Made by a program: the position numbers and the translations under genes | In this document: in pieces, positions 383-35,199 of the stretch | How positions within the stretch are numbered: position 1 is the stretch's first letter | How the letters are laid out: each line of letters starts with the position of its first letter | Source: an uncultured Dehalococcoidia bacterium | GTDB taxonomy: Bacteria > Chloroflexota > Dehalococcoidia > Lucifugimonadales > CATQGZ01 | Assembly (NCBI GenBank): GCA_964570875.1 | Contig: CAZMZE010000021.1 | Span: forward strand, 4,987 to 68,986 | Length of the DNA stretch: 64,000 bases | Direction: 5' to 3' | The notes under the pieces: generated by a model | Seen by the model: only the letters and a program-made list of their open reading frames with translations | The model's database searches: none | What the model was told of the DNA's origin: nothing

Positions 383-1345
383 ATGGTTCCTCAGTATAAA
401 TGGGAGTTCGTCACCGATAAACCATCATGGGCCGGTAGAGACGGTGCCGGAGCACTGATTTTCAAAGACAGGATGTGGTTACTCGGAGGTTGGAATCCAT
501 TAGATAAGAAGAATTTCCCGACGACCACTAATAGTGAGGTTTGGTCTTCACAAGATGGAATTAATTGGTCATTAGAATTACATAAAGCACCATGGGAGGG
601 CCGGCACACAGCGGGGTATACAGTTCATGACAATAAAATGTGGATAGTAGGTGGAGACGTTAATCAAGGGCACTATCAAAATGATGTGTGGAGTAGTACA
701 GACGGTGTCAGATGGCAACTGGTCAACGCCGATGTTCCATGGGGACCCAGAGCACTGCACTGCACCGCATCATTCAAGTCTGAATTATGGATTATAGGTG
801 GCCAAACAATAGCTGGTTTTGTTGAAAGTGATCACTTAAGTATCCAGGATAGTTTTTACCGAGACGTTTGGAAATCGCCCGATGGACATGAATGGACCAG
901 GGTCACTAAGACTGCTCCATGGAAGAAAAAAGGCATGGTGGGGGGCAGTATAGTTCTGAATAGCAAATTATGGCTCTTGGGTGGCGGTACATATGAAACT
1001 CCGCTAACTCCAGAAAGAACATTTAGCAACGAGATTTGGAATACATCTGATGGCATGATTTGGGAACCCATTTCTAAATCCTCACCATGGATGGCTCGTC
1101 AATACCATGACGTTGCTGTATTTGATAAAAAAATGTGGGTTCTTGGTGGTTACGGCATTAATCACAAAAACCTCAATGATGTATGGTATTCTCCTGATGG
1201 AATAACTTGGACTGAACTACCTGACACTCCATGGACAAAGAGGCATGCATCAAGTGTATTCGTATTTGATCAATGTCTATGGATTATGGCTGGTAATAAC
1301 ACGTGGCCAATGGTTCCTGATGTGTGGAAACTGACAAAAAACTAA
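383..1345 (+). CDS. Kelch-repeat beta-propeller protein
   Basis: 320-aa ORF with about six tandem ~47-aa repeats. Recurring W-x-S-x-DG-x-x-W (WSSQDGINW, WSSTDGVRW, WKSPDGHEW, WNTSDGMIW, WYSPDGITW) and hydrophobic-GG motifs (LLGG, IVGG, IIGG, VLGG) are typical of Kelch/galactose-oxidase-type propellers. No obvious signal peptide. Confidence 0.75.
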   Translation: MVPQYKWEFVTDKPSWAGRDGAGALIFKDRMWLLGGWNPLDKKNFPTTTNSEVWSSQDGINWSLELHKAPWEGRHTAGYTVHDNKMWIVGGDVNQGHYQNDVWSSTDGVRWQLVNADVPWGPRALHCTASFKSELWIIGGQTIAGFVESDHLSIQDSFYRDVWKSPDGHEWTRVTKTAPWKKKGMVGGSIVLNSKLWLLGGGTYETPLTPERTFSNEIWNTSDGMIWEPISKSSPWMARQYHDVAVFDKKMWVLGGYGINHKNLNDVWYSPDGITWTELPDTPWTKRHASSVFVFDQCLWIMAGNNTWPMVPDVWKLTKN

Positions 1346-2739
1346 AATCTGATTGTTATCTCATCTTGAATACTTTCATCCAATTTACGGACGTTTTGAC
1401 CAAAAGGCAATGTGCCGTAAGGATTGATATCGACGACACCCGACTAACTCTACAACAGCTAGTGTATAAATATCTCCGAAACTCCCAAGCACTAGATTTA
1501 CTACGAGATAATCGAATTGTACGAGATTCAATTGATACATTCCAAGATATTCAGGACTTTACATTGACATGTTCCACGTCTGGACTTTTAAGAGAACCAT
1601 ATCCGGGTATCGAATTTGTTCAAGATGGCCGACCTTTACATTGGTCAATGCATCCTAAAATCACAACAACTTCAGTGAAAAACACAGAACTTTCTGTGAT
1701 AAACATTGAAATTGATAGGACAAATATAGGTTATGACCGCAACTGGGAAGGTTTCCATAATCGTCGCTGGCAAAGACATCAGAATGAATATAACGATTTC
1801 ACAAATGAGATTTTAAGAACTAACTATCAAAACGATAAGGCAGAACGGATACTGGAATTAAAAACAAAATGGGATAAAGTTGCTCTTTTGCACTCTCTGG
1901 CTCGAAAAATATGGCTTAGTGAATTTGAAAACTACTCTAGATTTATTGATCGCAAGCTGATTTATAAAACTGGGGACGAAACAGTCCTTAACATAATAGC
2001 CGGAGCTGGTGGTATTTGTTCCGAAAAAGTCCAAGCTTTGAAATTTTTGACTGATCACTATGGCTTAGATTCAGAATACATAATCGCCGGAGCTAATGTC
2101 CCAGGCCCAGTTCCCGAATCAGCACTACGGAAAATGCTAGACACGTTCGATTTCCGTTTCGGGAAAAGACACATGAAATACTGGCAGCATACCGCTCTGA
2201 TTTACCACATAGATGGAGAGTCCATCTTCGTTGACGCGACCAACGGAAACATACCTTTCCTGTTTATACGAAATGCAGACAGTCATCCAATTCTATCAAC
2301 TTCAAATAAGACGCCAGTTAGGGTAAAAATGGCTCTGGAATACGAAGATTTTTATTACCACTGTGTCCCTCAAGATATACCAGAAAAATTCATATTTGCT
2401 ATGGAGACTTGGATCAGCGACATTGACCTAATACAGGTTTTTGAAAACGAGCTTGGGTTATCCATTTCTTCCGATTTCTTCGTGACCCCGTTAATCTATA
2501 AAAACCAAAATCAATACGAACTACTTAGCCAAGAATACTTAGCAATAGCAGGCAAATCCAATTTGATGTGTTCTACGTCTCCTATGTGGAGCCTCGATTC
2601 CAAAATTGGCCAACAATTTGCAGCCCAACAACCTAACGTAGCCAATAATATTATTGAAGCTAAGAACCATTTACTATCTCAATACAATCAGTGGGAAGCA
2701 TCCGAACATTCAATAGGACTGGTCATAATCAAAATTTGA
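1324..2739 (+). CDS. hypothetical protein with transglutaminase-like Cys-His-Asp core (putative)
   Basis: 471-aa ORF. The GTG at 1324 overlaps the Kelch gene stop, so the true start is uncertain. GGICSEKVQALKFL, then ~57 aa, then YWQHTALIYH, then ~15 aa, then FVDATNG resembles the G-x-C / H / D spacing of transglutaminase-core (papain-fold) enzymes. Motif-level only. Confidence 0.4.
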   Translation: METDKKLKSDCYLILNTFIQFTDVLTKRQCAVRIDIDDTRLTLQQLVYKYLRNSQALDLLRDNRIVRDSIDTFQDIQDFTLTCSTSGLLREPYPGIEFVQDGRPLHWSMHPKITTTSVKNTELSVINIEIDRTNIGYDRNWEGFHNRRWQRHQNEYNDFTNEILRTNYQNDKAERILELKTKWDKVALLHSLARKIWLSEFENYSRFIDRKLIYKTGDETVLNIIAGAGGICSEKVQALKFLTDHYGLDSEYIIAGANVPGPVPESALRKMLDTFDFRFGKRHMKYWQHTALIYHIDGESIFVDATNGNIPFLFIRNADSHPILSTSNKTPVRVKMALEYEDFYYHCVPQDIPEKFIFAMETWISDIDLIQVFENELGLSISSDFFVTPLIYKNQNQYELLSQEYLAIAGKSNLMCSTSPMWSLDSKIGQQFAAQQPNVANNIIEAKNHLLSQYNQWEASEHSIGLVIIKI

Positions 2740-2740
2740 G

Positions 2741-3550
2741 ATGGTAACTTACAGCACCCCCAACAATCTTGTCGAACTACTCAACAAAGTTCTAAAAGCC
2801 GCGTCCCACACAGGATTTTACAAAACTGACGTCCATACTATAAAAACACTTGAAGAGTATGCCCAAATAAACCCAGTCTCATTAAAAACGTACCGTGAGC
2901 AAAAACTATCCGATCTTTTGGTGGAGCATTCCACAATTGATTGGATAGCAAGGGCTTTCCGGGATACTAATCTCGGGTTGGCATCAATCGTAGAAAATCC
3001 AGACCAAACAGAGTCTAGGTACGAATTGCTGTCAGACGCTCTGAAACAAAGTATCGATATTAATCAGAAACCTATAGCGGTAGCTATATCATCCCTGCAG
3101 AAAATAGGTTTCGCTGCAGAGATATCAACCATACTGATGAGTTTAGGTATATCTACTCACTTAATCAGTTACACCCAGAAGGAACTGATCAATAAGTTCA
3201 TCAATATAACCCAACCCCAGTTGATCGTATTGCTTTCGGAGCACATATCAGAAGATGATCTACCAAATACAGTTGAACTATGCATTACATTTCGGCAATC
3301 ACATACAATGGCTCAAATACCTCAGCTAGACATGTATTTAGTGGATGAAATTGGATTTATGGCCCACTCGAACGACGGTAGAAACTACATACCATACAAA
3401 GACGTTTTCTACTTTGAGCAATCTGTTGAAGATTATTTAATAGTAAGTTCCCTCAACAACTTCACGAAACCACTCGTCAGAATTAAAACAGCAGATAAGA
3501 TAGATTACATAGACAATGTATTGAAGTTTAAAAGACTTGGCCCCGCATAG
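2741..3550 (+). CDS. degenerate PaaK/F390-synthetase-like protein lacking the adenylation P-loop
   Basis: 269-aa ORF; the ATG lies 1 nt after the upstream TGA. The N-terminus (LLNKVLKAASHTGFYKTDVHTIKTLEEYAQINPVSLKTYRE) and C-terminus (YLIVSSLNNFTKPLVRIKTADKI) parallel the PaaK-like gene at 4856 (YCYQNFLIYKNRF... and VLITSLRLKAMPLLRYRIRDVI). No SSGTTxKPK motif is present. Confidence 0.4.
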   Translation: MVTYSTPNNLVELLNKVLKAASHTGFYKTDVHTIKTLEEYAQINPVSLKTYREQKLSDLLVEHSTIDWIARAFRDTNLGLASIVENPDQTESRYELLSDALKQSIDINQKPIAVAISSLQKIGFAAEISTILMSLGISTHLISYTQKELINKFINITQPQLIVLLSEHISEDDLPNTVELCITFRQSHTMAQIPQLDMYLVDEIGFMAHSNDGRNYIPYKDVFYFEQSVEDYLIVSSLNNFTKPLVRIKTADKIDYIDNVLKFKRLGPA

Positions 3551-3764
3551 TTAGGGTGCAAGCAGATAGTTGGTCCACAAAAACCAGCATTAATTAGAAA
3601 CAACTTACTTTATTCGACAATAATGCTGATATGAGCAACAAAAACGACTAAACATTTAGTAATCAACTAATTATACTGAAATTGGACAGTAGACAATCTA
3701 CATAAACCGCATTTGAAATATCAATCATCGGAATTCACTAACAAACTAAGTCTGACGTTCAATA

Positions 3765-4835
3765 ATGATTTTCAGAATTAACAGACTGATTGCACAGATA
3801 CGTCGCAGGAAAGAAATCGGCATTGGATTCCTGTCCCTAGTTTTGATAACCAGTGTAATTGGAAATGGGATAACTTACTACGTTTTCGACCAGGGACTGA
3901 GTAATCCTAGTTTTGGTGATGCTCTCTGGTATAGCTTCACCTCAATTACAACAATAGGCTACGGGGACTTCCATGCAGATTCTTTAGGAGCTAGAATTGG
4001 AACAGCCATATTTATCGGCATTCTAGGACTTGCAACCTTTACAACTGCGGTGGGAATAGGTGTAGATTGGCTTCTAGATATACAATTCAAGGAGCGTATG
4101 GGTATGGGTCGAGCATTAACTAAAAATCACCTGTTGATAATAAATTACCCTAACGAACGTAGGATACGCCAAGTGGCAGATGAATATCTACAGGATGACG
4201 ATCATGCAGGGGATGACATAGTTCTGGTAACTGATAAGATTGATTCGCTTCCACCTCTGCTAGATAAAAAAATTCAACTGGTTAAAGGTTCGCCTATCGA
4301 AGAAGAAACCTATGCTAGGGCCGAGGTAGCGTCAGCTCGGCAGGCAATCGTCCTTAGTACCGGATACGATGACCCAAACAGTGACAGCATAAATGCTTCC
4401 ATAATTTCGATACTTGAACACTTAAACCCTGACTTGAGGTCCGTGGCCGAATGTCTGAACGTTAAACATTCTTTACTGTTCAACGGATCTAAGAATACCT
4501 CTCTAGTTCACACTCACCAGATTTCCAGTAATTTACTAGTCCAGGAAGCCCAAGACCCCGGAGTCAACAAACTTACTGTGGCGATAACAAGTAACGCTAT
4601 AAAAGGTACACTAGTCAGCACTGTAGTGGATTCTACCCCTGATAAAACAATATCCCTCCAAGATACTGCGAAACTTTTACTAGACCACGGGATTAATCTA
4701 GTTGGAGTTCTCAGGGGTGAGGATATTCACGTACAATTCACCACACTCAAATTGACACGAGACGACGTTCTTATATATGTAGGCGAAGCTAGGCAAGATT
4801 GGTCCACATTGAATTCCTACTTGCGAAACGCATGA
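3765..4835 (+). CDS. potassium channel (2-TM pore with TTIGYGD filter) fused to an RCK/TrkA-like cytoplasmic domain
   Basis: Selectivity-filter signature SITTIGYGDF lies between two hydrophobic helices. The C-terminal ~220 aa begin HLLIINYPNERRIRQVADEY, a Rossmann-like beta-alpha start of RCK domains, here without a GxGxxG motif. Confidence 0.8.
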   Translation: MIFRINRLIAQIRRRKEIGIGFLSLVLITSVIGNGITYYVFDQGLSNPSFGDALWYSFTSITTIGYGDFHADSLGARIGTAIFIGILGLATFTTAVGIGVDWLLDIQFKERMGMGRALTKNHLLIINYPNERRIRQVADEYLQDDDHAGDDIVLVTDKIDSLPPLLDKKIQLVKGSPIEEETYARAEVASARQAIVLSTGYDDPNSDSINASIISILEHLNPDLRSVAECLNVKHSLLFNGSKNTSLVHTHQISSNLLVQEAQDPGVNKLTVAITSNAIKGTLVSTVVDSTPDKTISLQDTAKLLLDHGINLVGVLRGEDIHVQFTTLKLTRDDVLIYVGEARQDWSTLNSYLRNA

Positions 4836-4855
4836 AGTGATTGCAGTAGCCACCG

Positions 4856-6097
4856 ATGCTAGAGAGCCCTTCAGAAAAAACAGTAGAACAACTAAGACAT
4901 ACTCTTTCATATTGCTATCAAAATTTCCTTATCTATAAGAATCGATTTAGCAAATCAGGAATAGGGCAACGTGAGTTAAACCGCGAGAACCCTCTAGACA
5001 TCCTCAGTAAATTAATGCCCCTTGAAACCCAAGAATACGAAATTTTAGCTGATGAAGCCATTCTTAATATTGAAAACATAGTAGACATCGAAACTTCTTC
5101 AGGTACTACAAATAAACCAAAACGCCGATTCATTTCAATGGAAGATGAACTCTTAGAACAAAAGTTGCTCTCGAAGATGTTCAAGATATGCGGCATTAAT
5201 AGTCATGATAGAGTCGCATGTTTAGATATAGATCCCTTGAACATAATGGCTAGCTTTGTTCAAGTAATCCAAAAAACATTGATTACAGCAGATGCATATT
5301 GTTACTCCCCAACTCATCAAGCTCAAAGATCGTTCCTTGATTTGAGGAATCTTGATCCTACTGTGATCATATCGGTGCCCACGATAATTGAACGATGGTT
5401 ACCAGAATTCTTGACAGCATTCAAAGATTCAGCAAAAAACCAACTCGCCAAAATCATCTACGTCGGTGAGAATATGCCTACCCAAACCAGAACAATCTTG
5501 GAAAAAAAACTAGGAGTAGAAGTTTTTGGTTATTACGGTGCTACCGAAGCCTCTAGTATGGGAATCGAATGTGGACACCACACAGGAATCCACCTTTTCA
5601 CAGACCACAATTTTTTTGAATTAGTTACAAGAACTGGTACAAATCAAACTGAGGTTTTGATTACTTCGCTTCGCCTAAAAGCAATGCCCCTTTTACGGTA
5701 CCGAATCAGAGATGTTATTCAGGTTAATACAAATAGCTGCGAATGCGGATTAAACTACCCGGCTGTGAAGGTTTCACGATCCTCCGAAGAAACAATGAAC
5801 ATCCTAGGTGTTTCCATAAACTATCAATCGATCTATAGATCAGTCTACACGCGGGAATCCCAACCAATGCAAATTATTTTGACGAAAAATTCACGGGACA
5901 GTGTAATGATAATTCTCCCTGTTAAGCTTAGAGAAAATCGATCGTATATAATTAGCAGGATATTTGGTGAAAATCCAGATCTGGAATTTCTAGTATCCAG
6001 TGGCCATCTTGACCTAGATATTTCCTTTGATGACAGAGTTGCCAAAATTCGAAAAAAGCAAACTTTGGTAGACCTAAGAAAATCAGATGCAGCATGA
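4856..6097 (+). CDS. PaaK/coenzyme-F390-synthetase-family adenylate-forming enzyme
   Basis: IETSSGTTNKPKRRF (AMP-binding P-loop, cf. SSGTTGKP), YYGATEASS (YGxTE) and PLLRYRIRDV (RYRTGD) appear in the order typical of phenylacetate-CoA-ligase-like enzymes. 413 aa. Confidence 0.75.
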   Translation: MLESPSEKTVEQLRHTLSYCYQNFLIYKNRFSKSGIGQRELNRENPLDILSKLMPLETQEYEILADEAILNIENIVDIETSSGTTNKPKRRFISMEDELLEQKLLSKMFKICGINSHDRVACLDIDPLNIMASFVQVIQKTLITADAYCYSPTHQAQRSFLDLRNLDPTVIISVPTIIERWLPEFLTAFKDSAKNQLAKIIYVGENMPTQTRTILEKKLGVEVFGYYGATEASSMGIECGHHTGIHLFTDHNFFELVTRTGTNQTEVLITSLRLKAMPLLRYRIRDVIQVNTNSCECGLNYPAVKVSRSSEETMNILGVSINYQSIYRSVYTRESQPMQIILTKNSRDSVMIILPVKLRENRSYIISRIFGENPDLEFLVSSGHLDLDISFDDRVAKIRKKQTLVDLRKSDAA

Positions 6098-6801
6098 CTC
6101 TAAAACATGTCAAACCTAAGCCAGACCTAATTGAAATCAGGCATGACCAACTTGATCTTATAGTTCAAGGCCATAGATTACTCAAACAAACTATGGAATC
6201 TGGATACGTCGAAAATTTGGAATCCTTTCTAAAAACAGTTTCCCCCTATACTGATACATTCGTAAAACCTCATGTGATTGGAGCATTTCACAAGGGTGTT
6301 TTGATAGGATTGGTAGTAGGATCATATTTAGTTAAAGCTGATATTGGTTTCGTGTCATATGCTGGGGTAGATTCAAAATGGCGTCAGAACAAAGTGTACT
6401 CCAACCTACGTAAAACACTGATATCTACGTTCCAATATGACGCTGATAACCAACCTAATTCGCGCCTTTCTTATGTGGCTTCTGAAATGATCAGGAATTC
6501 GCTTTTATTCAAATCAATTACAAGTCATGACGACATATTCGTACTCCCCTGTGATTATGAACAACCAGCTACCCAAGGATTACTATCAAAACAACTAGAG
6601 TTTTTGATGCAATCAATATCTGGGAAAATCCCTCACAATCTAAATGAAATTTTGTGTATTCTGAAAGAAGTCTACAGAGGTATCTATCGAATACCTGATT
6701 ATGAATCAAACATCACATTTAAGAAGTTGAGAGCGTCTTTGTTAATTTATAATCTAAGCGCCCTATTAACGAACAAACCCGGATTGATTGTAAAGTCATA
6801 G
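6094..6801 (+). CDS. hypothetical protein (possible GNAT-fold acyltransferase)
   Basis: 235-aa ORF whose ATG overlaps the upstream stop (ATGA). The segment VIGAFHKGVLIGLVVGSYL...FVSYAGVDSKWRQNKVYSNLRKTLI weakly resembles GNAT beta4-alpha3 (motif A). Low confidence. Confidence 0.3.
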   Translation: MTLKHVKPKPDLIEIRHDQLDLIVQGHRLLKQTMESGYVENLESFLKTVSPYTDTFVKPHVIGAFHKGVLIGLVVGSYLVKADIGFVSYAGVDSKWRQNKVYSNLRKTLISTFQYDADNQPNSRLSYVASEMIRNSLLFKSITSHDDIFVLPCDYEQPATQGLLSKQLEFLMQSISGKIPHNLNEILCILKEVYRGIYRIPDYESNITFKKLRASLLIYNLSALLTNKPGLIVKS

Positions 6802-6805
6802 AAAC

Positions 6806-9800
6806 ATGATACTAAGAAACACAATAAATCCCATAAAATTGATACGTGATTTTGACTTCTCAGCTAAATCTGATAGTGATTTAGAGAATAGGCTTAGAGC
6901 TTTAATACAATCTTCAGCTAATAGGAAAACACAGACTTTTGAACCATATGCGATTATAGCCGAAATTATTGACCGAAAACTCGGGATATGGAAAATATTT
7001 GAATCCACAACGAACGTCGGTCCCTTAAATAAATATCTAACACTTGCACAGATACTAAGGTCAAAAGCTCCATTTAAAAACCATATTGAATACGACAAAG
7101 ACCCTCGATTTTTTGATAGCAAATCGTTTACAGAATCCTTAGAACCCATTCTGAACAAGTGGAGATTAAATTCAGCGGAAAAGAATGTAGTCAAAACTTT
7201 GATATACGTTGGAGAACAAGTTGGTACCCACAAGGCAAATATTTATTTACCTGGGCAATTTTACCAATCGTTCAGAAATTTAGACGTGGAAGATATGTTC
7301 TCTTTCCGCATCACAGATTCGCAACTTATGTCTGCGCTGATGGTCTACGATGGGTCCATCGTAGAATTGGATGCAGGAGAGGGCAAAACCGTTTCTGCTG
7401 GTATTCCTGCACTTATACATGCTCTAAACGGCAAATCCGTCCACGTAATTACATCCAACGACTATTTGGCCAAAAGAGACTGCGAACTGCTTTCCCAAAT
7501 GTACAACTCGGTTGGTGTTTCATCTGGATATATCCAAAACCATATGGAAAACCGAGAGAGACAAATTGTCTATCATAAAGATATCGTTTACAGCACAATC
7601 AGAGAAATCGGTTTCGACTACCTCAGAGACAATATTTCAACTGAATCCGGATCCGCAGTTACAAACTCCCTTGAAATAGCTATTGTTGATGAAGCAGATC
7701 ACATCCTTATTGACCAAGTTCTCTCACCCCTCATAATTTCGGGGGAATCTATAACCAATCGCAGAGCATTCAAAAAATCCCATGAGTTTATAAAAGAAAT
7801 CTTGTATCTCCAAAAACAGGTTGTAAAACAATTGGAAGTTGAAGCAACCGATGCAAAATACTCGAAAAACTTTACATCAATCCTGGCAAAACTAGCTTTG
7901 GCCGACCCGAGAAACTATCTACTCAAAGACAAAATTATTGATGCCAAGATGAGAAAACTAATCACAGAAATATTGGAATCAGTTACTTTTGACGACCAAC
8001 CTAGCTCTCCACAAGACCCATATTTCATCGTGGAGTCAAATTTCACATCAGTAATGTTGACTCGCCGTGGGCAAGAATTACTGGAACTCAGACTCGGCAA
8101 CATATTTGACCTTGGTGAAGATTTGTCATACGAGTCATCTGAAGAAACTCTCAGGCGAAACGACTTGCAATATTCAAGAATCAACCAAATTCACCAGTTA
8201 TTAAGAGCATACGTACTTTTACGTAAAAACTTTGACTATGTTGTAACTGGCGGAAAGATTGTTTTGGTTGACCAAATGACAGGACGTACTCTGCCCGATA
8301 ATCGATTCCAACATGATTTACACGCAGCATTAGAAGCTAAAGAAAACCTAGAAATACTAGACCAATACGAAACTGTTGCTCAAATCTCCATCCCTGGACT
8401 TGTTGGCAGATATCAACAGATTTCAGGACTTACCGGAACAGCTATATCAGCTCGAGATGAATTCACTCGGATGTATGGATTATCAGTTAAAAAAATACCT
8501 CCATCCATGTTCTCTCTTCGAGTCGACAAAGAAAGCCAAATAGCATCAAATAAAGTAGGGAAATTCCGTTCAATCATAGACAGCACCCGGGCGGCAAACA
8601 ATGTTGGCCGCCCAGTCCTAATAGGCACTAACTCTGTAGCTGAATCTTACGAACTCAGCACTGCTCTCAAAAATCATGGCATAGACCATATGTTATTGAA
8701 CGCTATCAATGATTCAGAAGAGACAAGAATCGTAAGAGACGCCGGGAACCTAGGGTCAGTGACCATAGCTACCAATATGGCAGGACGTGGGACCGACATT
8801 GTAGTAAAACCAGATATCAATAAAGCTATTGTCAATCGATATACGGAGTTAGTCACTGACCTGTTTAATAATGGCGCTACTGAAGTAAATATTAAATGCG
8901 GGACAGAATCAGAATACGAAGTACTTAAAACCGTACTATCTCAATCTCACTATACATACAAACCCAACAAATCCTTGAAATTTCATAATTTCAGTTTAAC
9001 GGTTCTTCCAAACCCAATTTCACATTCTCACAAGAAACATCTAGACCCGATGTCTCTTGGAAAAACCGGCCAAAAAGCCATCACATTATGGAGCACCGTT
9101 TTGAGTATCTCCTTGGACAAAATATTGTCCATAACAAATCATCTCAATCAAATCACCAAAGATAGACCCTCAGCCAGATACCAAATTGATTTTGGTCTTG
9201 GGATGTTGGTGATTGGAACAGAATTGAACAAATCTCGGAGAGTGGATGACCAACTCAGAGGGCGTACAGCAAGACAGGGATCATTCGGGGCCACAAAATT
9301 TGTACTTTCCTTGAAGGATCTCCCCCTTGATAAATATGGTGCATTTGGATTCAGTGGAAACGATAGCAACAATGGACATAGCATCAATAACTCACGTCAA
9401 ATTTCTAAGATTCAAAAACTACAAGATATTGTAGAGCAGCAAGAAAACCTAGACCGGGCATTCATCCAAAATTATTGGAAACTGATGGATCATCAGACCA
9501 TTTCATACTATTCAGCTCGCCAAGAAATTCTAGAATCATCTATTTTCCAAACCACATATCCAAAATTGGCACAAGTTTTTTCTAAAACAATTGTTGACAG
9601 GCATTTTCCTAAAATGCGCGTCCGAGATTACCAGAAGCAATTCCAGCAGATGAGCGCCGATGTCACAAAGTCTCTGAATTTGCCGATTTCTGATTTATAT
9701 GGTTCCCCTATTCCAGACTTACAAAGTGAACTGGCTATTCGCTTACTCAATTCAATTGATAAGGTAAACGCACAAATAGAACCTGAGCAAATTGACTACG

Positions 9801-10114
9801 TTGGTAAAACAGTCTTTTTACAAACTGCTGACAACCTTTGGAAAGAACATATGATACTGATGGAAAATCTATTTCAAAGTTTTTCGTCCGGCATGGATGG
9901 AATTGCTAACTCTTTGGCAAGATTTAAATTTGAGGCATTCCAAGAATATTGCAATTTCCAGGCACTAGTTATTGAGCAATTTTTATGTAATTTGGTTAAA
10001 TCAACAAATACAGACCATCTAGAGGATCGTCAACAATCAGTGCAACTCAGCACCGACATTCGATCAATGTTGGAATTTACTTTAATGAATGAAACAAAAA
10101 TGGAGGTGAATTGA
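6806..10114 (+). CDS. highly divergent SecA-like ATPase (SecA paralog, no SEC-C tail)
   Basis: 1102 aa. SecA hallmarks appear in order: [38 protein letters not shown] (cf. E. coli [38 protein letters not shown]), [77 protein letters not shown] and LWKEH. It has an N-terminal extension and a large NBD2 insertion, and ends ...NETKMEVN without a zinc finger. Confidence 0.85.
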   Translation: [1102 protein letters not shown]

Positions 10115-10115
10115 T

Positions 10116-10895
10116 ATGAAAAACAGATCTCTTGGTCGTGGTTTCGCTGCTTTTGCAGGCAGTATGGTGGTAGTTAGCCCGGCCCTCGCAGCATGCGCGG
10201 CAGAGCCAAGCTACGAAGACTGGGCGGCAACTGACGGTGCCGCAGGACGAATTAATTTAGATGATGTTCAAGATGCATTCAAGAGGTCAGAAAGTGTTAC
10301 AGACTTTGAAGACAGAGTAAATCGTATTTACGAAGGAGATGGAATAATTTTGATCCGTGTAGATCAAGATGGCAGTCGAATGCAATTGGAAGCGTTTGAA
10401 GATCTTGATAAAAACGGTGAAATCAGTGAATCTTCGGACGATAAACTATTCTCAATTGTTAAAGACCATGACCAGCATGAAATGCGAGGATACGGAGCGA
10501 ACGGTTACTACGGAAGTCACTTTGGTACAGGAAATTTCCTGTTCACATATTTAATGTTCTCATCGATAGCAGGACGTCCTTATTACTACCACACTACGCC
10601 CGCTAGATACTCTAATATCAGTCAGAATCGAGCGTCATATAGGAAATCAGCTTCATATGGTAATCAACTAAAAAGAAATCACTATTACAACAATCAGCAG
10701 AAAAATTTTAAAGGATCACAATATAGCAACGCTGGCCGTAATATCAGTCAAGGCAGACAAACTTATCAATCAGTACAAAAATCCAGTGGTCAGTTCAAAT
10801 CCCTGAACAAAAGCGCAACGAGGTTTGGAAGCAGAGGTAGCACCAGAGGAGGTGGTGGATCAAACCGGATAATCGGCTTCGGACGGACAACATAA
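10116..10895 (+). CDS. predicted lipoprotein with DxDxNG calcium-loop-like motif and low-complexity Q/N/Y/S/G/R-rich C-terminus
   Basis: N-terminus MKNRSLGRGFAAFAGSMVVVSPALAAC has a positive n-region, a hydrophobic core and the lipobox L-A-A-C. It also has FEDLDKNGEISESSDD. The C-terminal ~110 aa are low-complexity (YYHTTPARYSNISQNRASYRKSASYGNQLKRNHYYNNQQKNFKGSQYSNAGRN...RGGGGSNRIIGFGRTT). Confidence 0.65.
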   Translation: MKNRSLGRGFAAFAGSMVVVSPALAACAAEPSYEDWAATDGAAGRINLDDVQDAFKRSESVTDFEDRVNRIYEGDGIILIRVDQDGSRMQLEAFEDLDKNGEISESSDDKLFSIVKDHDQHEMRGYGANGYYGSHFGTGNFLFTYLMFSSIAGRPYYYHTTPARYSNISQNRASYRKSASYGNQLKRNHYYNNQQKNFKGSQYSNAGRNISQGRQTYQSVQKSSGQFKSLNKSATRFGSRGSTRGGGGSNRIIGFGRTT

Positions 10896-10900
10896 ACACA

Positions 10901-11860
10901 ATGGCACGGATACATATGTCTCTTGAGACATCTCCTGAACTGGGTTTCCTTGAGTTAGAAATCCATTCTGAATGGTATTCCAAAACATTTGAAGAACTTC
11001 TTCGTTACATTTTCACTCAAAGATCGCATATCCCTACTGATGATTCCGCATACGGGCTAACCGTTATCGATAACCTAGATACGCCTGAGATATATCAAGC
11101 TTTCTCTAACATCTTTAATTCTTGGTCACTCGGGTTATGCACTTTAAACATTGAAACTAGTGACAATAGCAAATTACCGATACTGACTCCTCTAAATGAT
11201 ATTTTGCTATCAATAGTTCGTGAGAACAAATCAATAATCCTGAAGCAAACCTTTGATCCACTTCAGTGGTACAGCAGTCAAAACAACGATTTCGACCAAT
11301 TAATAGAATGGTTGAAAATATCAACTCTCGTCTACGTAATAGACAAAAATCTGGATCAAACCAGGCCCGATTGGCACGAATCTATCACATCATTGTTGGA
11401 CGAGATCCGTCCAAATGATTTGGCAATTAAAACGGAGGAAGGAAAATTAGAAATCACTAGTACAGGAAGAGAATTGTTGAGATCAATGATTGAAGAAACC
11501 GAATCTTACATTGAAGGATACGACATATTCAAAGACGTTCTCTACGACCGAGAGATGTTTTCTGCACGCTTCGGCACTGGGCACGGCCACGATCTTCGCG
11601 TGCAAGTGTTTGAATCAGAAGGGTTTAATTCCATTCGTACCGTGTTCATGCTTATGCTTTACGATGGTACGTTAGAACTGGCATTAAATAACTCAATGGA
11701 TTTTTCTCTATCAAATGTTTTTTTCAACAACCTCTTAATACCTGTGTTGGACAGAGTTATAGTTGAAGACTCAGACCTAAACTGGATCATAGAAGCTGGA
11801 TTTGAACATTCAACTACAACAAATCACACCGAGCACGATTTTAAAAAGCTGATACGTTGA
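10901..11860 (+). CDS. hypothetical protein (last gene of the SecA-like cluster)
   Basis: 319-aa ORF starting 5 nt after the upstream stop. No motif recognised. Confidence 0.5.
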   Translation: MARIHMSLETSPELGFLELEIHSEWYSKTFEELLRYIFTQRSHIPTDDSAYGLTVIDNLDTPEIYQAFSNIFNSWSLGLCTLNIETSDNSKLPILTPLNDILLSIVRENKSIILKQTFDPLQWYSSQNNDFDQLIEWLKISTLVYVIDKNLDQTRPDWHESITSLLDEIRPNDLAIKTEEGKLEITSTGRELLRSMIEETESYIEGYDIFKDVLYDREMFSARFGTGHGHDLRVQVFESEGFNSIRTVFMLMLYDGTLELALNNSMDFSLSNVFFNNLLIPVLDRVIVEDSDLNWIIEAGFEHSTTTNHTEHDFKKLIR

Positions 11861-28565: not shown

Positions 28566-28640
<75 letters not shown>

Positions 28641-28687: not shown

Positions 28688-28882
28688 TTATACAATTACA
28701 GCATGGCATTTTTTGTACTTTTTACCACTCCCGCATGGGCACTTTTCATTACGTCCAACCTTCCGACCATTAGATTGGCTTTCAAAACGCTTCTGGGCTA
28801 TTGACTTGTCCAGACATTTTGCGCATGTGCAAGCTTGACCATGTTCTTCATGCCAATTACTACGCTCTTTACCAATAACCAT
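28688..28882 (-). CDS. small SEC-C motif (zinc-binding) protein
   Basis: 64 aa ending [18 protein letters not shown], the SEC-C metal-binding motif found at SecA C-termini. An additional CTCAKC lies upstream. Confidence 0.75.
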
Positions 28883-29765: not shown

Positions 29766-30120
29766 ATATTTCACCTTATGGAGTGTAACCAGTTTACCGA
29801 TAGCTCGAAACTTTTTATTGATGGCACATAAGATAAAATTGAACACCACCAATGAGCAAAACTATAATAACCTAAATGATTGTAAAGAAAATCTTTCTGG
29901 TCATTTCAGAATTGTTACAATTTCACATATACGTCATCAATATAATTAATTCAAAACAATGTTAATATCTTACTGTAGCATTCACATCAAGTATTATTGA
30001 ATTTCTTTGTCTTTCCCCGCTAAATTTCTAGGATCTGGCAGATCCTAGATGATGTAGTATCTACTAAATTGGGCACACAGCTTTCAGACAATATCACCCC
30101 ACTTGGAGTTAAGTATCAAA

Positions 30121-31940: not shown

Positions 31941-33368
31941 CTAAAATGGCATCATGCGTTCGATCACAGTTTCAGGCAATTCACCAACAATCTTATCCAC
32001 ATTTACGGATTCTATCGGCCTCTTAACTGACGTAGGATCAATTCCTGCCTTCAACGCACCTATCACTCCGGCGGCTTCTAGGTAACTATCAACTATGTTA
32101 AGTTGGCCAGGCATCCAGGGCAATTGGCCTAAATCATTAGACATCAATGTCTTGTTTTCTCTAACTGCTATCACTGGTATGCCTTGCGAGAGTGCTGCTA
32201 AAGTTGGCAGTCCGAGGCAACCGTCCGGTATGACCACACATGATATATCTTCAGCTGTCAACGCCGATCTATGCGTTATAGATGATGTGTCAGTTAGTAT
32301 GCGGGGACTCGATTTCAAACCTTTCAATATGCATTGGAGAAAAGTCAAAGATATTGCCTCAGCTGCCATTCTTGGGTCAACAATTCCGGGATCCATATTT
32401 GCAATATCTTGAGTTTCCATCATTGGTGAATGCGCGGAGGGGACATTGTAAACAGTTGACACTGCGTGAGTAAGCAAGGCCTCTACTCCTCCCCAAGGAT
32501 TAACCATGTCTCCTCCCAATTCAAAGTACTCAGTATGGTAATTTTCCGGCACAATGATTCTAGAAGACAATGCCACCGCATCATAATAACTTACTCTCTT
32601 CTTCAATTCATTGGTAAGCAAATCTAGATTATGTACTCGGCCTGTTGCACGTCCGCTAGAAGTGAAACTAGAATCCATAACAAAACATGGGTCTATTTCC
32701 AATATATCTACCCCTGACAGTCCGTAAGAAACACGAGCAGCATTTACCGCATTTATGGCAGCATTCATAAACACTTGATCTTCGTGAGAATCTAAGACAA
32801 CCAAAATCCGATTTCTTCTAACGGGAAGTAACCCGACGGTTCCCATCAATAATCGAGTCAAAACACTTCCTTCAACATACAAAGCATTTTGGGGAAGGTC
32901 TATTATGTCTGAAGCATTAACAACATTGGGGTGAGTTATTAATGAATCGCTTACAGAAGCGAGTAAAGAAGCTACGGGGGTAGCATCACCCGCGTGGCCG
33001 CCTATTTCTGCTCCTACTCCTGTCGGAACGATCAATACTGTTGTAAATTTGTCGGGAACTTCCAATCGACGTGGTACAAACTTAAATATTGAATCTACAT
33101 TATGTTGATCTTGATCAACCATTAGGCCAATTTCGCACCTATAACGAAATCGGTCTGAGCTCGAAACAATAAATCGGATTGGCACTTCTCCTGCCTGCAG
33201 AAACTTCTTCACTGATTCTGACAAACCATGGATTAAATTTCGACCAGTATTGTCAGAAGTTAATATTTTATCTGGGTTTATTTTGATTTCAATTTCACGT
33301 TCAGATAGGAACACTGGTTGTAGATCTCCATTTCGTGGCGTAATCTTGGTATGTAAATTCCTTTTCAA
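31941..33368 (-). CDS. uncharacterised conserved protein (PTGVGAEIGGHAGDA motif; DUF3326-like by recollection)
   Basis: 475-aa ORF overlapping the nspC stop. An alternative GTG at 33314 would overlap by 14 nt. Motif VLIVPTGVGAEIGGHAGDATPV. It is not Rossmann-like and not saccharopine-dehydrogenase-like. Confidence 0.35.
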   Translation of the reverse strand: MKRNLHTKITPRNGDLQPVFLSEREIEIKINPDKILTSDNTGRNLIHGLSESVKKFLQAGEVPIRFIVSSSDRFRYRCEIGLMVDQDQHNVDSIFKFVPRRLEVPDKFTTVLIVPTGVGAEIGGHAGDATPVASLLASVSDSLITHPNVVNASDIIDLPQNALYVEGSVLTRLLMGTVGLLPVRRNRILVVLDSHEDQVFMNAAINAVNAARVSYGLSGVDILEIDPCFVMDSSFTSSGRATGRVHNLDLLTNELKKRVSYYDAVALSSRIIVPENYHTEYFELGGDMVNPWGGVEALLTHAVSTVYNVPSAHSPMMETQDIANMDPGIVDPRMAAEAISLTFLQCILKGLKSSPRILTDTSSITHRSALTAEDISCVVIPDGCLGLPTLAALSQGIPVIAVRENKTLMSNDLGQLPWMPGQLNIVDSYLEAAGVIGALKAGIDPTSVKRPIESVNVDKIVGELPETVIERMMPF

Positions 33369-34632: not shown

Positions 34633-35199
34633 ATGCTAAGAGGGCTATTCGGTTCTAAGAAGAAAAACTCGACTGACTCAGAAGATTCGGATCCAACAAT
34701 CCAATCAGCAGAAATCGGCGACATCCTCGTTATCAATGGATTCTCCTATCCGCTAGAGGATTCATACCTTTTGATTGAAAAAATTACTGAATACCAAGGC
34801 TCATCTGGTTATTGGCACGAATTGGTTTGCGTAGAAAATGACATACGGACATCTATAGAATTTTCTCAGGAAGATGAATTATTTATAACAGCTACAGATC
34901 AAACATCTCCTCTATCTATTGATGCTATCGGGATCACCGAAGAAATCTTGACTAGGATGGATGAAGAACATTCGAGAAGTAATGGTTTCTTGTATGAAGG
35001 CATCGAGTATGTATACTCAAATAGTTATGAGGCATGTGTTAAGGGAAAAACATATGAAGAAACAGGATTCTATATCTGGGAATTCAGTAGTGTTGATGGG
35101 CAGAGTCTATTAAGCGTAATTAAATCATCTGGGGTACCTTTTGAGGTTTATACTCCAAGGATTTTGGATACTGAAAATATAAGCGTATACAAACAGTAG
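34633..35199 (+). CDS. DUF4178-like protein
   Basis: 188 aa. The pattern IGDILVINGFSYPLE...EYQGSSGYWHELVCV resembles DUF4178 (G..f...g..y.v.....W.Ey.l). Identified from memory only. Confidence 0.4.
   Translation: MLRGLFGSKKKNSTDSEDSDPTIQSAEIGDILVINGFSYPLEDSYLLIEKITEYQGSSGYWHELVCVENDIRTSIEFSQEDELFITATDQTSPLSIDAIGITEEILTRMDEEHSRSNGFLYEGIEYVYSNSYEACVKGKTYEETGFYIWEFSSVDGQSLLSVIKSSGVPFEVYTPRILDTENISVYKQ

What the first reader, a model, noticed from the sequence alone, without database searches (positions are those of the whole stretch)
383..11860. Nine-gene co-directional cluster built around a divergent SecA paralog: candidate undescribed accessory export / cargo-modification system
All nine ORFs are on the + strand and most junctions are coupled. 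1345/1324 overlap. 2739/2741 are 1 nt apart. 4835/4856 are 20 nt apart. 6097/6094 overlap as ATGA. 6801/6806, 10114/10116 and 10895/10901 are within 1-5 nt. Only one 214-nt gap (3551-3764) could hold an internal promoter. The content is a Kelch propeller, a transglutaminase-like Cys-His-Asp protein, one degenerate and one intact PaaK/F390-synthetase-type adenylating enzyme, a 2-TM K+ channel with an RCK domain, a possible GNAT, a 1102-aa SecA-like ATPase, a lipobox protein with a Ca-loop-like motif and a prion-like tail, and a 319-aa orphan. Known accessory Sec systems have entirely different partners: Gram-positive SecA2-SecY2 works with Asp1-3 and Gtf glycosyltransferases, and mycobacterial/listerial SecA2 stands alone. 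No SecY2, Asp or Gtf homolog is present here. In the aSec system cargo is modified and then handed to a dedicated SecA. By analogy, the adenylating, acyltransferase and TGase-like enzymes could modify a cargo for a dedicated motor, and the adjacent lipoprotein is the obvious cargo candidate. The right boundary is sharp: dtd follows on the opposite strand. The left boundary may lie beyond the window.
Basis: partly seen in the sequence, partly recalled or inferred. Interest (0 to 1): 0.85.

Follow-up and report, generated by a model that had tools for sequence, protein, structure and literature searches.

The report
Conserved SecA-paralog gene cluster in SAR202
This is a real, undescribed gene module of abundant deep-ocean SAR202 (Dehalococcoidia) bacteria, in which a strongly diverged copy of the protein-export motor SecA is almost always encoded with the same enzyme, lipoprotein and adaptor-like protein, in a neighbourhood of potassium-channel and polyamine genes.

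Summary
All nine ORFs are at the stated coordinates. Most family calls hold. ORF7 has all four SecA domains but scores below every SecA and SecA2 cut-off. ORF5 is a PaaK-type ligase and ORF3 its degenerate N-domain. ORF4 is an RCK K+ channel. ORF6 is weakly GNAT. ORF2 folds like arylamine N-acyltransferase/transglutaminase Cys-His-Asp enzymes.

Linkage is conserved. Across 46 lipoprotein (ORF8) lineages from marine metagenomes, the SecA-like gene lies directly upstream in 34 of 35. ORF9 lies downstream in 30 of 32. ORF2 is present in 17 of 18. The K+ channel, ligase pair and GNAT are optional. The Kelch gene is lineage-specific.

The system is larger than reported. A DUF350 + DUF4178 pair normally follows ORF9, and a decarboxylase + DUF3326 polyamine pair is often inside or beside the cluster. 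In this window both pairs sit at 31941-36113. This matches described PspA-linked polyamine/K+-channel/lipoprotein/DUF350 operons, none of which contain SecA.

The SecA-like clade is monophyletic. It is twice as distant from canonical SecAs as those are from each other across phyla. I could not show directly that a canonical SecA coexists.

Best reading (about 0.4): an accessory SecA handling the adjacent lipoprotein within an envelope/cation-homeostasis module. New variant of a known kind.

The parts
383..1345 (+). ORF1, a Kelch beta-propeller. It is a lineage-specific addition and not part of the conserved module.
   Evidence: Pfam Kelch families, E 1e-19. Found only in the same-species locus L089 and in none of the other related loci. 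Upstream lies a divergent short-chain dehydrogenase gene, so the cluster starts here.
1324..2739 (+). ORF2, core component: a cytosolic enzyme with an arylamine N-acyltransferase (NAT) / transglutaminase-like Cys-His-Asp domain (invariant C232, H289, D304) behind an uncharacterised N-terminal domain. The probable true start is the TTG at 1366.
   Evidence: No Pfam, NCBIfam or PDB sequence hit. AlphaFold2 model with pLDDT 88.5. Foldseek against the PDB finds NATs (4dmo, E 4e-4, probability 1.0), the amide synthase GdmF and LapG. Present in 17 of 18 lineages with 9 kb or more of upstream sequence. The family is large and carries 'Chloroflexi bacterium' names.
2741..3550 (+). ORF3, accessory: a degenerate N-terminal domain of a PaaK-type adenylating enzyme with no P-loop. 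It is the likely non-catalytic partner of ORF5.
   Evidence: hhalign against the ORF5 family gives probability 92%. A PDB profile search hits phenylacetate-CoA ligase 9s3l at E 1.6e-12. Present in 8 of 18 lineages.
3765..4835 (+). ORF4, frequent accessory: a two-transmembrane K+ channel (TTIGYGD filter) with a cytosolic RCK/TrkA_N domain.
   Evidence: Pfam Ion_trans_2 at 1.5e-14, TrkA_N at 1.7e-5 and Slo-like_RCK. Two transmembrane segments. Present in 13 of 18 lineages and 46-61% identical across loci.
4856..6097 (+). ORF5, accessory: an intact PaaK / F390-synthetase-type adenylate-forming ligase.
   Evidence: Pfam AMP-binding. NCBIfam DVU_1553 family at 4e-31. PDB profile hit to 4r1l phenylacetate-CoA ligase at 1.6e-35. 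Present in 9 of 18 lineages. In L002 it sits beside the decarboxylase + DUF3326 pair.
6094..6801 (+). ORF6, accessory: a probable GNAT-fold acyltransferase.
   Evidence: A family profile gives weak PDB hits to the GNATs YpeA, YqjY and ARD1 (E 0.0035-0.016) over the motif-A region (RRxGxY). There is no Pfam hit. Present in 9 of 18 lineages.
6806..10114 (+). ORF7, core: a SecA-family ATPase of 1102 aa with an intact motor, three clade-specific insertions, a remodelled C-terminal domain and no SEC-C zinc motif.
   Evidence: All four Pfam SecA domains are present. It scores below every NCBIfam SecA and SecA2 cut-off. Alignment to B. subtilis SecA shows the insertions. The clade is distinct and monophyletic. 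Directly upstream of ORF8 in 34 of 35 lineages.
10116..10895 (+). ORF8, core and the best conserved component: a lipobox protein. It has a signal peptide ending in an invariant Cys27, an acidic domain with a DxDxNG-type metal-loop motif, a weakly hydrophobic stretch at 137-155, and a basic tail rich in Q, N, S, Y, G and R with no acidic residue.
   Evidence: Alignment A2. Composition and hydropathy. Median identity 55% across loci. Only 139 relatives among 1.84 billion representatives. 9 of 80 members hit Pfam DUF1190 weakly, and hhalign does not confirm this.
10901..11860 (+). ORF9, core: an acidic cytosolic protein (53 D+E against 25 K+R) with an N-terminal beta-grasp-like domain, a middle winged-helix-like segment and a C-terminal helical domain.
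   Evidence: No family hit. AlphaFold2 model with pLDDT 87. Foldseek gives only weak matches to ubiquitin-fold domains (Ufm1, E 0.05, probability 0.99). A weak MarR-like stretch. Downstream of ORF8 in 30 of 32 lineages. Homologues are named 'SAR202 cluster bacterium'.
31941..33368 (-). DUF3326 protein, the displaced polyamine module. In other loci it lies inside or beside the cluster.
   Evidence: Pfam DUF3326 at 1.5e-93. Orthologues lie within the cluster in L113, L120-128, L142/143 and L164, and beside it in L002, L105, L136, L140, L151 and L161. A DUF3326 protein (PavB), together with a carboxynorspermidine-decarboxylase-like protein (PavA), is needed to form a triamine in the pavettamine pathway (bioRxiv 10.64898/2026.06.12.731819).
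33301..34509 (-). PLP-dependent decarboxylase of the Orn/DAP/Arg family, resembling carboxynorspermidine decarboxylase (CANSDC). It is the partner of DUF3326.
   Evidence: Pfam Orn_DAP_Arg_deC at 8.8e-10 and Orn_Arg_deC_N. It is always adjacent to DUF3326 in related loci.
34633..35199 (+). DUF4178 protein. In most relatives it lies immediately downstream of ORF9 on the opposite strand. Here it is displaced by about 23 kb.
   Evidence: Pfam DUF4178 at 7.9e-5. An orthologue lies within 4 kb downstream of ORF9 in 32 of 36 loci that have 2.5 kb or more of downstream sequence.
35223..36113 (+). DUF350 (YjfL family) membrane protein with two DUF350 repeats. It is the partner of DUF4178.
   Evidence: Pfam DUF350 at 3.3e-53 with two stretches. 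An orthologue lies within 3 kb downstream of ORF9 in at least 29 of 36 loci. Three further loci were missed only because the called ORFs overlap by a few bases.

Best explanation
The region is the main arm of a conserved gene module specific to marine SAR202/Dehalococcoidia (Chloroflexota).

Invariable core:
- ORF2, an enzyme with the Cys-His-Asp fold of arylamine N-acetyltransferases (NAT) and transglutaminases (TGase).
- ORF7, a fast-evolving SecA-family ATPase.
- ORF8, a strongly conserved lipoprotein with an acidic metal-loop domain and a basic low-complexity tail.
- ORF9, an acidic cytosolic protein with beta-grasp-like and winged-helix-like parts.
- Normally a DUF350 + DUF4178 pair follows.

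Optional add-ons: an RCK-gated K+ channel; a PaaK-type ligase with its degenerate partner; a GNAT; a decarboxylase + DUF3326 polyamine-forming pair; DegV; Usp.

Proposed working, all inferred. The SecA paralog acts as a dedicated accessory motor. With the acidic ORF9 as adaptor or chaperone, it handles the adjacent lipoprotein, whose 100-residue tail (18 K+R, no D/E) should be hard to move through the general Sec pathway. ORF2 makes or breaks amide bonds through an acyl-Cys intermediate. Its target is either the Gln/Lys-rich tail or a polyamine. It would use acyl donors activated by the ligase/GNAT and amines from the decarboxylase/DUF3326 pair. The module as a whole serves envelope and cation (K+, polyamine) homeostasis. 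It is a Chloroflexota counterpart of the PspA-linked polyamine / K+-channel / lipoprotein / DUF350 operons of other bacteria.

Shown: gene content, folds, co-occurrence, taxonomic range and divergence of the SecA clade. Inferred: paralogy, export, cargo identity, chemistry and physiological role.
For: Linkage:
- SecA-like is directly upstream of ORF8 in 62 of 63 loci (34 of 35 lineages).
- ORF9 is downstream in 55 of 58 loci (30 of 32 lineages).
- ORF2 is present in 28 of 29 loci (17 of 18 lineages).
- DUF350/DUF4178 follow in 29-32 of 36 loci.
- Gene order holds although the SecA-like proteins share only 31-38% identity.

SecA nature: all four SecA domains are present, with Walker A, Walker B and the GRGTD motif intact.

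Divergence:
- It scores 497-500 bits against cut-offs of 800-814, and below all four SecA2 models.
- It has three insertions.
- Canonical-invariant residues are retained at 72-79% in the two nucleotide-binding domains (NBDs) but only 36% in the C-terminal domain.
- The clade is monophyletic. Its mean distance to canonical SecAs is 1.41, against 0.71 among canonical SecAs of different phyla. The Chloroflexota (Anaerolineales) SecA groups with the canonical ones.

Cargo candidate: ORF8 is the best conserved member (55% median identity). It has an invariant lipobox and a tail with +18 net charge. ORF9 has a net charge of -28.

Chemistry:
- ORF2 has a NAT/GdmF/LapG-like fold.
- ORF5 is a PaaK ligase.
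- ORF6 is a GNAT.
- The DUF3326 + decarboxylase pair forms a triamine in the pavettamine pathway.

Context:
- PspA-linked operons with a K+ channel, DUF350, a DUF1190 lipoprotein and a polyamine ligase are described in PMC11237479.
- E. coli YgiC and YjfC, next to DUF1190 lipoproteins, are peptide-spermidine ligases.
- PspA lies within 10 kb in six loci.

Taxonomy: homologues are named SAR202, Dehalococcoidia or Chloroflexi.
Against: - No canonical SecA was demonstrated in any genome carrying the cluster. There is none in the 64-kb window, in 10 kb upstream of it, or in about 90 related loci. Paralogy is therefore inferred, not shown.
- No SecY2-like channel is linked. ORF8 has an ordinary signal peptide that the general Sec pathway could serve.
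- The C-terminal translocation domain, including the two-helix-finger motif, is the most altered part of the protein. This could mean loss of translocase function rather than specialisation.
- ORF2 is cytosolic, with no signal peptide or transmembrane segment. It could reach ORF8 only before export, or only if the tail stays inside the cell.
- The ligase, GNAT and polyamine genes are optional.
- Similarity of ORF8 to DUF1190 is weak and was not confirmed by profile comparison.
- The fold matches for ORF9 are weak.
Confidence: 0.4

Rival explanations
1. The SecA-derived ATPase no longer translocates proteins. It works as a membrane-proximal, ATP-driven remodeller, scaffold or sensor inside a polyamine/K+ envelope-stress system. 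It would take the place that PspA with CesT-like or AAA+ chaperones holds in related operons. Possible partners are the DUF350 membrane protein, the K+ channel or a cytosolic tail of ORF8.
For: - The C-terminal translocation domain keeps only 36% of canonical-invariant residues, and the two-helix-finger motif is replaced. The ATPase core is kept.
- There are three large insertions.
- No SecY2 is linked.
- Linkage to DUF350/DUF4178 is near-universal, and polyamine genes and PspA are frequent neighbours.
- Related PspA operons combine the same partner types with chaperone-like ATPases.
- The motor and ORF9 evolve fast, while ORF8, the channel and ORF2 are constrained.
Against: - The preprotein cross-linking domain, scaffold and wing are all still recognisable.
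- The most tightly linked gene encodes a signal-peptide lipoprotein, which is the pattern of known SecA2 loci.
- No SecA-family protein has a known non-translocase role of this kind (my own knowledge).
Confidence: 0.25
2. ORF7 is simply the only, unusually divergent, housekeeping SecA of these bacteria. It happens to sit in a conserved operon.
For: - No second SecA was found in any sequence I could read.
- The cluster is widespread in SAR202.
- Automatic annotation calls the protein SecA, K03070.
Against: - Its distance to canonical SecAs (1.41) is twice the cross-phylum distance among canonical SecAs (0.71).
- A Chloroflexota canonical SecA (Anaerolineales, L040) is 55-60% identical to SecAs of other phyla and does not group with the clade.
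- Divergence within this one class exceeds cross-phylum divergence of canonical SecA: median identity 42% against 49%.
- It evolves faster than its own neighbours, unlike an essential housekeeping motor.
- It fails all curated SecA cut-offs.
- One assembly, MKWU01, carries two divergent copies.
Confidence: 0.1
3. The locus is mainly a small-molecule pathway making an N-acylated polyamine, for example a siderophore-like or membrane-active conjugate. The lipoprotein would act as binding or uptake protein and the SecA-like gene as a passenger.
For: A PaaK ligase, a GNAT, a NAT/amide-synthase-like ORF2 and the decarboxylase + DUF3326 polyamine pair together give a coherent chemistry for making amide-linked polyamine conjugates.
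Against: - The biosynthetic-looking genes other than ORF2 are the optional ones (8-9 of 18 lineages). The SecA-like gene, ORF8 and ORF9 are the invariable ones.
- No transporter typical of such pathways is conserved in the cluster.
- Linkage in 34 of 35 lineages is incompatible with a passenger gene.
Confidence: 0.1

Closest known systems
Accessory Sec (aSec) system of Gram-positive cocci: SecA2-SecY2 with Asp1-3 and Gtf glycosyltransferases (my own knowledge; NCBIfam TIGR03714)
   Same: A second SecA-family motor is encoded with cytosolic accessory proteins, with enzymes that could modify a cargo, and next to a low-complexity exported protein.
   Different: There is no SecY2, Asp or Gtf homologue. 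ORF7 scores 365 bits against a cut-off of 930 for TIGR03714. The partners here are a NAT/TGase-fold enzyme, a PaaK ligase, a GNAT and a K+ channel. The host phylum is Chloroflexota.
Stand-alone SecA2 of Mycobacterium and Listeria, and SecA2 of Bacillus anthracis and Clostridioides difficile encoded next to S-layer cargo genes (my own knowledge; NCBIfam TIGR04221, NF012136, TIGR04397)
   Same: A SecA paralog using the general channel and serving a few substrates. In B. anthracis and C. difficile the cargo gene is adjacent, as ORF8 is here.
   Different: ORF7 is below all three curated cut-offs: 364 against 725, 323 against 1100 and 412 against 1085. Those SecA2 proteins are shorter than SecA1. 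ORF7 is longer, with three insertions.
PspA-associated polyamine / K+-channel / DUF1190-lipoprotein / DUF350 operons, and the DUF350 - lipoprotein - DUF4178 - spermidine-synthase operons (Ravi et al. 2024, PMC11237479). The E. coli examples are yjfIJKLMC and ygiBC, where YgiC and YjfC are peptide-spermidine ligases.
   Same: The same cast of partner types is present: a ligand-gated K+ channel, a cell-surface lipoprotein with a metal-binding motif and a Gly/Ser/Arg-rich tail, DUF350, DUF4178, polyamine-forming enzymes and an amide-bond-forming enzyme. PspA is nearby in some loci.
   Different: Those operons contain no SecA-family protein; the paper has no occurrence of 'SecA'. Amide chemistry is supplied here by NAT/TGase-fold, PaaK and GNAT enzymes rather than an ATP-grasp ligase. 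Polyamine formation uses a decarboxylase + DUF3326 pair. Homology of ORF8 to DUF1190 is unproven.
PavA/PavB of the pavettamine pathway (bioRxiv 10.64898/2026.06.12.731819)
   Same: A carboxynorspermidine-decarboxylase-like protein is paired with a DUF3326 protein, as at window 31941-34509 and inside many related clusters.
   Different: PavA carries additional Rieske and racemase-like domains, and a JmjC hydroxylase (PavC) follows. Neither is seen here.

Membership tests
Canonical housekeeping SecA (NCBIfam TIGR00963 / PRK12904) | The whole protein scores above the curated equivalog cut-off | tested here: not met
   497 bits against 800 (TIGR00963) and 500 bits against 814 (PRK12904).
Canonical housekeeping SecA (NCBIfam TIGR00963 / PRK12904) | Domain set: NBD1, preprotein cross-linking domain (PPXD), NBD2 and scaffold/wing, with intact ATPase motifs | tested here: met
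   Pfam SecA_DEAD, SecA_PP_bind, P-loop_SecA and SecA_SW all pass their cut-offs. GEGKT, DEAD and GRGTD are invariant in the clade. The protein aligns to B. subtilis SecA over all domains.
Canonical housekeeping SecA (NCBIfam TIGR00963 / PRK12904) | Groups with SecAs of other bacteria at the usual cross-phylum similarity, and keeps the conserved two-helix-finger / C-domain residues | tested here: not met
   The clade is monophyletic and separate. Distance to canonical SecAs is 1.41 against 0.71 among them. Identity to canonical SecAs is at most 34.7%, against a cross-phylum median of 48.6%. Only 36% of canonical-invariant C-domain residues are kept.
Canonical housekeeping SecA (NCBIfam TIGR00963 / PRK12904) | Being the only SecA of the genome | not testable with these tools
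   Whole genomes could not be read. The single genome scan was flooded by canonical SecAs of other phyla. No second SecA was found in the window or in related loci.
aSec SecA2 (TIGR03714) with SecY2, Asp1-3 and Gtf | Score above cut-off and linkage to SecY2, Asp and Gtf genes | tested here: not met
   365 bits against 930. None of the neighbours hits SecY, Asp or glycosyltransferase families.
Mycobacterial, Listeria and B. anthracis SecA2 (TIGR04221, NF012136, TIGR04397) | Score above the curated cut-off | tested here: not met
   364 against 725, 323 against 1100 and 412 against 1085.
Accessory SecA system in the functional sense | A second SecA beside a canonical one, dedicated to specific cargo | tested here: inconclusive
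   Divergence and conserved linkage to a signal-peptide lipoprotein fit this. Coexistence with a canonical SecA and cargo dependence were not shown.
PspA-associated polyamine / K+-channel / lipoprotein / DUF350 operons (PMC11237479) | Co-occurrence of DUF350, a cell-surface lipoprotein, polyamine enzymes and a ligand-gated K+ channel | tested here: met
   DUF350 is adjacent in 29-32 of 36 loci. The K+ channel is present in 13 of 18 lineages. The decarboxylase + DUF3326 pair is in or beside the cluster in 17 loci. All are present in the window.
PspA-associated polyamine / K+-channel / lipoprotein / DUF350 operons (PMC11237479) | Presence of PspA with a CesT/Tir-type partner in the operon | tested here: not met
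   PspA lies within 10 kb in only six loci and never inside the cluster. There is none in the window.
DUF1190 (YgiB/YjfM) lipoproteins | Significant match to PF06693, or profile similarity to YgiB/YjfM beyond the signal peptide | tested here: inconclusive
   9 of 80 family members hit PF06693 below its cut-off (best E 7.7e-4). The window protein does not hit it. hhalign against YgiB + YjfM aligns only the signal peptide, at probability 17%. The overall layout is similar.
Arylamine N-acetyltransferase / transglutaminase-like Cys-His-Asp superfamily (ORF2) | The fold, with Cys at a helix N-terminus and His and Asp on following strands | tested here: met
   Foldseek hits to NATs at probability 1.0 and E 4e-4, plus GdmF and LapG. 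Invariant C232 precedes helix 233-245, H289 starts strand 289-296 and D304 ends strand 299-304.
Arylamine N-acetyltransferase / transglutaminase-like Cys-His-Asp superfamily (ORF2) | Sequence membership in Pfam NAT (PF00797) or Transglut_core (PF01841) | tested here: not met
   There is no Pfam or NCBIfam hit, and no PDB sequence-profile hit.
PaaK-type adenylate-forming ligases (ORF5, ORF3) | AMP-binding core with P-loop (ORF5). ORF3 has the same N-domain without the P-loop. | tested here: met
   ORF5 has an invariant SSGTT motif and hits 4r1l at E 1.6e-35. ORF3 aligns to the ORF5 family at probability 92%, with GPxRGQ in place of the P-loop, and hits 9s3l at E 1.6e-12.

The most novel reading that the evidence does not exclude
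A SecA-family motor has been recruited to a job outside general protein export. It would be the ATP-driven core of a new envelope machine of SAR202 bacteria. It would work with the DUF350 membrane protein and/or the K+ channel to move, thread or anchor a polyamine- or acyl-modified lipoprotein tail, rather than acting through SecYEG.
Probability: 0.25. Interest if true: 0.9.

Novelty: new variant of a known kind. Interest (0 to 1): 0.72.

Why it matters
SecA paralogs are known from only a few lineages. All known ones are Gram-positive or actinobacterial, with SecY2/Asp/Gtf partners or none.

This one is a separate, deeply diverged SecA clade with a completely different and strictly conserved partner set. 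Its hosts are SAR202, one of the most abundant bacterial groups of the dark ocean.

If it is an export system, it adds a third type of accessory Sec pathway and names its probable cargo and adaptor. If it is not, it would be the first SecA-family ATPase working outside translocation.

It also ties the poorly understood DUF350 / DUF4178 / lipoprotein / polyamine / K+-channel operons to an ATPase that can be tested. It gives uncharacterised families (ORF2, ORF8, ORF9, DUF3326) a defined context. And it shows that KEGG-style annotation (K03070) counts this protein as ordinary SecA.

Tried and rejected
1. Direct test for a coexisting canonical SecA.
Only L009 and L027 were clade members.
- I then tried matching 'longest contig' lengths between protein clusters. 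The method works for co-located genes. For example, P0308 and P0032 both give 4,119,534.
- It needs a Dehalococcoidia canonical SecA as query. The best canonical hits, the 1002-aa group, proved to be Thermodesulfobacteriota. Other candidates carried no taxon names.
- tblastn found no canonical SecA in the window, in 10 kb upstream or in about 90 related loci.

2. A concatenated ORF2 + ORF9 query, meant to get two families from one search, returned only ORF2 relatives in the listed top 120.

3. DUF1190 homology of ORF8 gave recurrent but sub-threshold Pfam hits. Profile-profile comparison with E. coli YgiB + YjfM did not confirm them. I keep it as an analogy only.

4. Anti-phage defence reading: no PADLOC hit for any core protein.

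5. Internal promoter or riboswitch in the 214-nt gap. Promoter-like sites are at the shuffle expectation. There are no Rfam matches in the cluster. The gap is not conserved in relatives.

6. PDB sequence-profile searches for ORF2, ORF8 and ORF9 gave nothing significant.

8. P0071 was suspected to be a Chloroflexota canonical SecA. It turned out to be a further-diverged member of the same system.

Full report
**Observation**

The junctions are tight. The only doubtful one is 1345/1324. ORF2 homologues align from residue 15, where a TTG lies at 1366, so the overlap with the Kelch gene is probably an artefact of taking the first start codon. The 214-nt gap is not conserved in relatives. It holds no Rfam element, and promoter-like sites are no more frequent than chance.

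**What each gene is**

- ORF1 is a Kelch propeller.
- ORF4 is a two-transmembrane K+ channel with a TTIGYGD filter and an RCK/TrkA_N domain.
- ORF5 is a PaaK-type adenylating ligase. It hits PDB 4r1l at E 1.6e-35.
- ORF3 is the N-domain of the same fold without its P-loop. hhalign gives 92% probability, and it hits 9s3l at E 1.6e-12.
- ORF6 gives weak but consistent matches to GNAT acetyltransferases over motif A.
- ORF2 has no sequence-family hit. A confident AlphaFold2 model (pLDDT 88.5) matches arylamine N-acetyltransferases (NAT), the amide synthase GdmF and the transglutaminase (TGase)-like protease LapG.
- In ORF2 the invariant C232, H289 and D304 sit on the helix N-terminus and the two strands, as expected for that superfamily.
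- ORF8 has an invariant lipobox cysteine and an acidic domain with a DxDxNG-type loop. Its tail has 18 K+R, no D/E, and many Q, N, S, Y and G. The tail's key residues are conserved rather than merely compositionally biased.
- ORF9 is acidic. Its model (pLDDT 87) shows an N-terminal beta-grasp-like domain, a winged-helix-like middle and a helical C-terminus. The fold matches are weak.

**The SecA-like protein**

ORF7 contains all four Pfam SecA domains and intact ATPase motifs. It falls far below every curated SecA and SecA2 cut-off.

Against B. subtilis SecA it has three insertions:
- about 110 aa in the first nucleotide-binding domain (NBD1);
- about 100 aa in the preprotein cross-linking domain (PPXD);
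- about 77 aa in NBD2.

It lacks the SEC-C motif.

In the protein database it heads a separate group, at 534-833 bits. Scores then drop sharply to 386 bits for ordinary SecAs.

Residues that are at least 90% conserved in 68 canonical SecAs are retained at 72-79% in the two NBDs. Only 36% are retained in the scaffold/wing/two-helix-finger region.

In a distance tree the clade is monophyletic. Its mean distance to canonical SecAs is 1.41, against 0.71 among canonical SecAs of different phyla. The one Chloroflexota canonical SecA available (Anaerolineales, L040) groups with the canonical set. That protein is 55-60% identical to deltaproteobacterial SecAs.

**Conservation of the neighbourhood**

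Contigs carrying clade members show the same order at only 31-38% SecA identity. A metagenome scan with the ORF8 alignment gave 75 more loci, mostly marine.

With family HMMs, and counting only loci with enough flank:

| Gene | Loci | ORF8 lineages (90% identity) |
|---|---|---|
| SecA-like, directly upstream of ORF8 | 62 of 63 | 34 of 35 |
| ORF9, downstream | 55 of 58 | 30 of 32 |
| ORF2 | 28 of 29 | 17 of 18 |
| K+ channel | 18 of 29 | 13 of 18 |
| ORF3 | 15 of 29 | 8 of 18 |
| ORF5 | 16 of 29 | 9 of 18 |
| ORF6 | 13 of 29 | 9 of 18 |

The Kelch gene occurs only in this species. Upstream of it lies a divergent dehydrogenase gene, which fixes the left boundary.

Median pairwise identity is 55% for ORF8, 51% for the channel, 47% for ORF2, 37% for the SecA-like protein and 32% for ORF9.

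**The system is larger than reported**

- In some relatives a PLP decarboxylase of the carboxynorspermidine-decarboxylase (CANSDC) type and a DUF3326 protein replace the channel inside the cluster. In others they sit a few kb away.
- A DUF350 + DUF4178 pair lies immediately downstream of ORF9 on the opposite strand in 29-32 of 36 loci.
- In this window all four genes are present but displaced by about 20 kb, at 31941-36113.
- PspA lies nearby in six loci. DegV precedes ORF2 in five loci, and a tandem Usp is inserted in one.

**Taxonomy**

Homologues that carry names are 'SAR202 cluster bacterium', 'Dehalococcoidia bacterium' or 'Chloroflexi bacterium'. The two clade members in the genome scan are Dehalococcoidia MAGs. 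The ORF8 family has only 139 representatives among 1.84 billion proteins.

**Comparison with known systems**

None of the partners of known accessory Sec systems is present.

The closest described context is the set of PspA-associated operons of Ravi et al. 2024. These combine a ligand-gated K+ channel, DUF350, a metal-chelating DUF1190 lipoprotein, DUF4178 and polyamine enzymes. That paper does not mention SecA.

In E. coli the DUF1190 lipoproteins YgiB and YjfM sit next to YgiC and YjfC, which are now known as peptide-spermidine ligases. A decarboxylase + DUF3326 pair is required for triamine formation in the pavettamine pathway.

ORF8 resembles DUF1190 proteins in layout, and 9 of 80 relatives hit the model weakly. 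Profile comparison does not confirm homology.

Literature searches found no description of a SecA-containing version.

**Mechanism**

Shown:
- a four-gene core of ORF2, the SecA-like protein, ORF8 and ORF9;
- the DUF350/DUF4178 pair next to it;
- optional modules for K+ flux, carboxylate activation, acyl transfer and polyamine formation.

Inferred, at about 0.4:
- The SecA paralog is a dedicated motor for the adjacent lipoprotein, helped by the acidic ORF9.
- ORF2 uses acyl or amine donors from the optional enzymes to form amide bonds on the tail or on a polyamine.
- The module serves envelope and cation homeostasis.

The main rival, at about 0.25, is that the motor has left protein export and acts as a remodeller inside this stress system. 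The heavy change in its translocation domain favours that rival.

The sole-housekeeping-SecA reading, at about 0.1, is unlikely given the divergence figures.

**Verdict**

This is a real, conserved and apparently undescribed SecA-paralog module with a wider polyamine/K+/DUF350 context. I class it as a new variant of a known kind, namely accessory SecA systems and PspA-type polyamine envelope operons. There is a meaningful chance that it is something more unusual.

Noticed in passing
window 28688-28882 (-), next to tRNA-Met at 28566-28640: A 64-aa ORF carries a SEC-C-type zinc-binding motif, the C-terminal motif that ORF7 itself lacks. It was picked up by tblastn with canonical SecA C-termini (72-81% identity over 18-21 residues).
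   Followed up: no
window 30103-30594 (+): A classical GNAT acetyltransferase (Pfam Acetyltransf_1, 3e-13) lies 1.3 kb from the DUF3326/decarboxylase pair. It could be a polyamine acetyltransferase.
   Followed up: no
window 1324-1368: ORF2 probably starts at the TTG at 1366 rather than the GTG at 1324, because homologues align only from residue 15. This removes the overlap with the Kelch gene.
   Followed up: partly
L008 1-2329: Three tandem copies of a gene pair (91 aa + 123 aa, no Pfam hits) lie upstream of a type-B cluster.
   Followed up: no
L134 5390-6316: A tandem universal-stress-protein (Usp) gene is inserted between the GNAT-like gene and the SecA-like gene. A partial Usp also lies upstream of the SecA-like gene in L152.
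   Followed up: partly
L002 6020-6898; L008 5947-6816; L009 5835-6716; L114/L115 2870-3748: A DegV (fatty-acid-binding) gene lies directly upstream of ORF2 in the cluster variants that lack the PaaK ligase pair. This hints at a fatty-acyl donor in those variants.
   Followed up: no
L151 (MKWU01000001.1) and L161 (MKWU01000017.1): One assembly carries two divergent copies of the core cluster (SecA-like distance 0.92). Each has DUF350/DUF4178, PspA and the decarboxylase/DUF3326 pair downstream. I could not tell whether the assembly is one genome.
   Followed up: partly
L164 (contig of P0071): This is a further-diverged version of the system. The order is a 466-aa protein, a 266-aa protein, the decarboxylase, DUF3326, the PaaK ligase, a 278-aa protein, a 974-aa SecA-like protein, an 85-aa protein and a 277-aa protein. 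A classical Transglut_core protein is nearby. It shows the family extends beyond the 40 closest clusters.
   Followed up: partly
P0369, P0372, P0388: Some ORF9 homologues are 540-555 aa instead of about 330-370 aa. They may be fusions with another domain.
   Followed up: no
L159/L160 (Ga0101943, Ga0209478), L154, L155, L158: These are distant versions, with ORF8 at 36-40% identity and a SecA-like protein of only 906 aa. The contig names differ from those of the marine Tara/ENA loci, which may mean the module is not restricted to marine SAR202.
   Followed up: no
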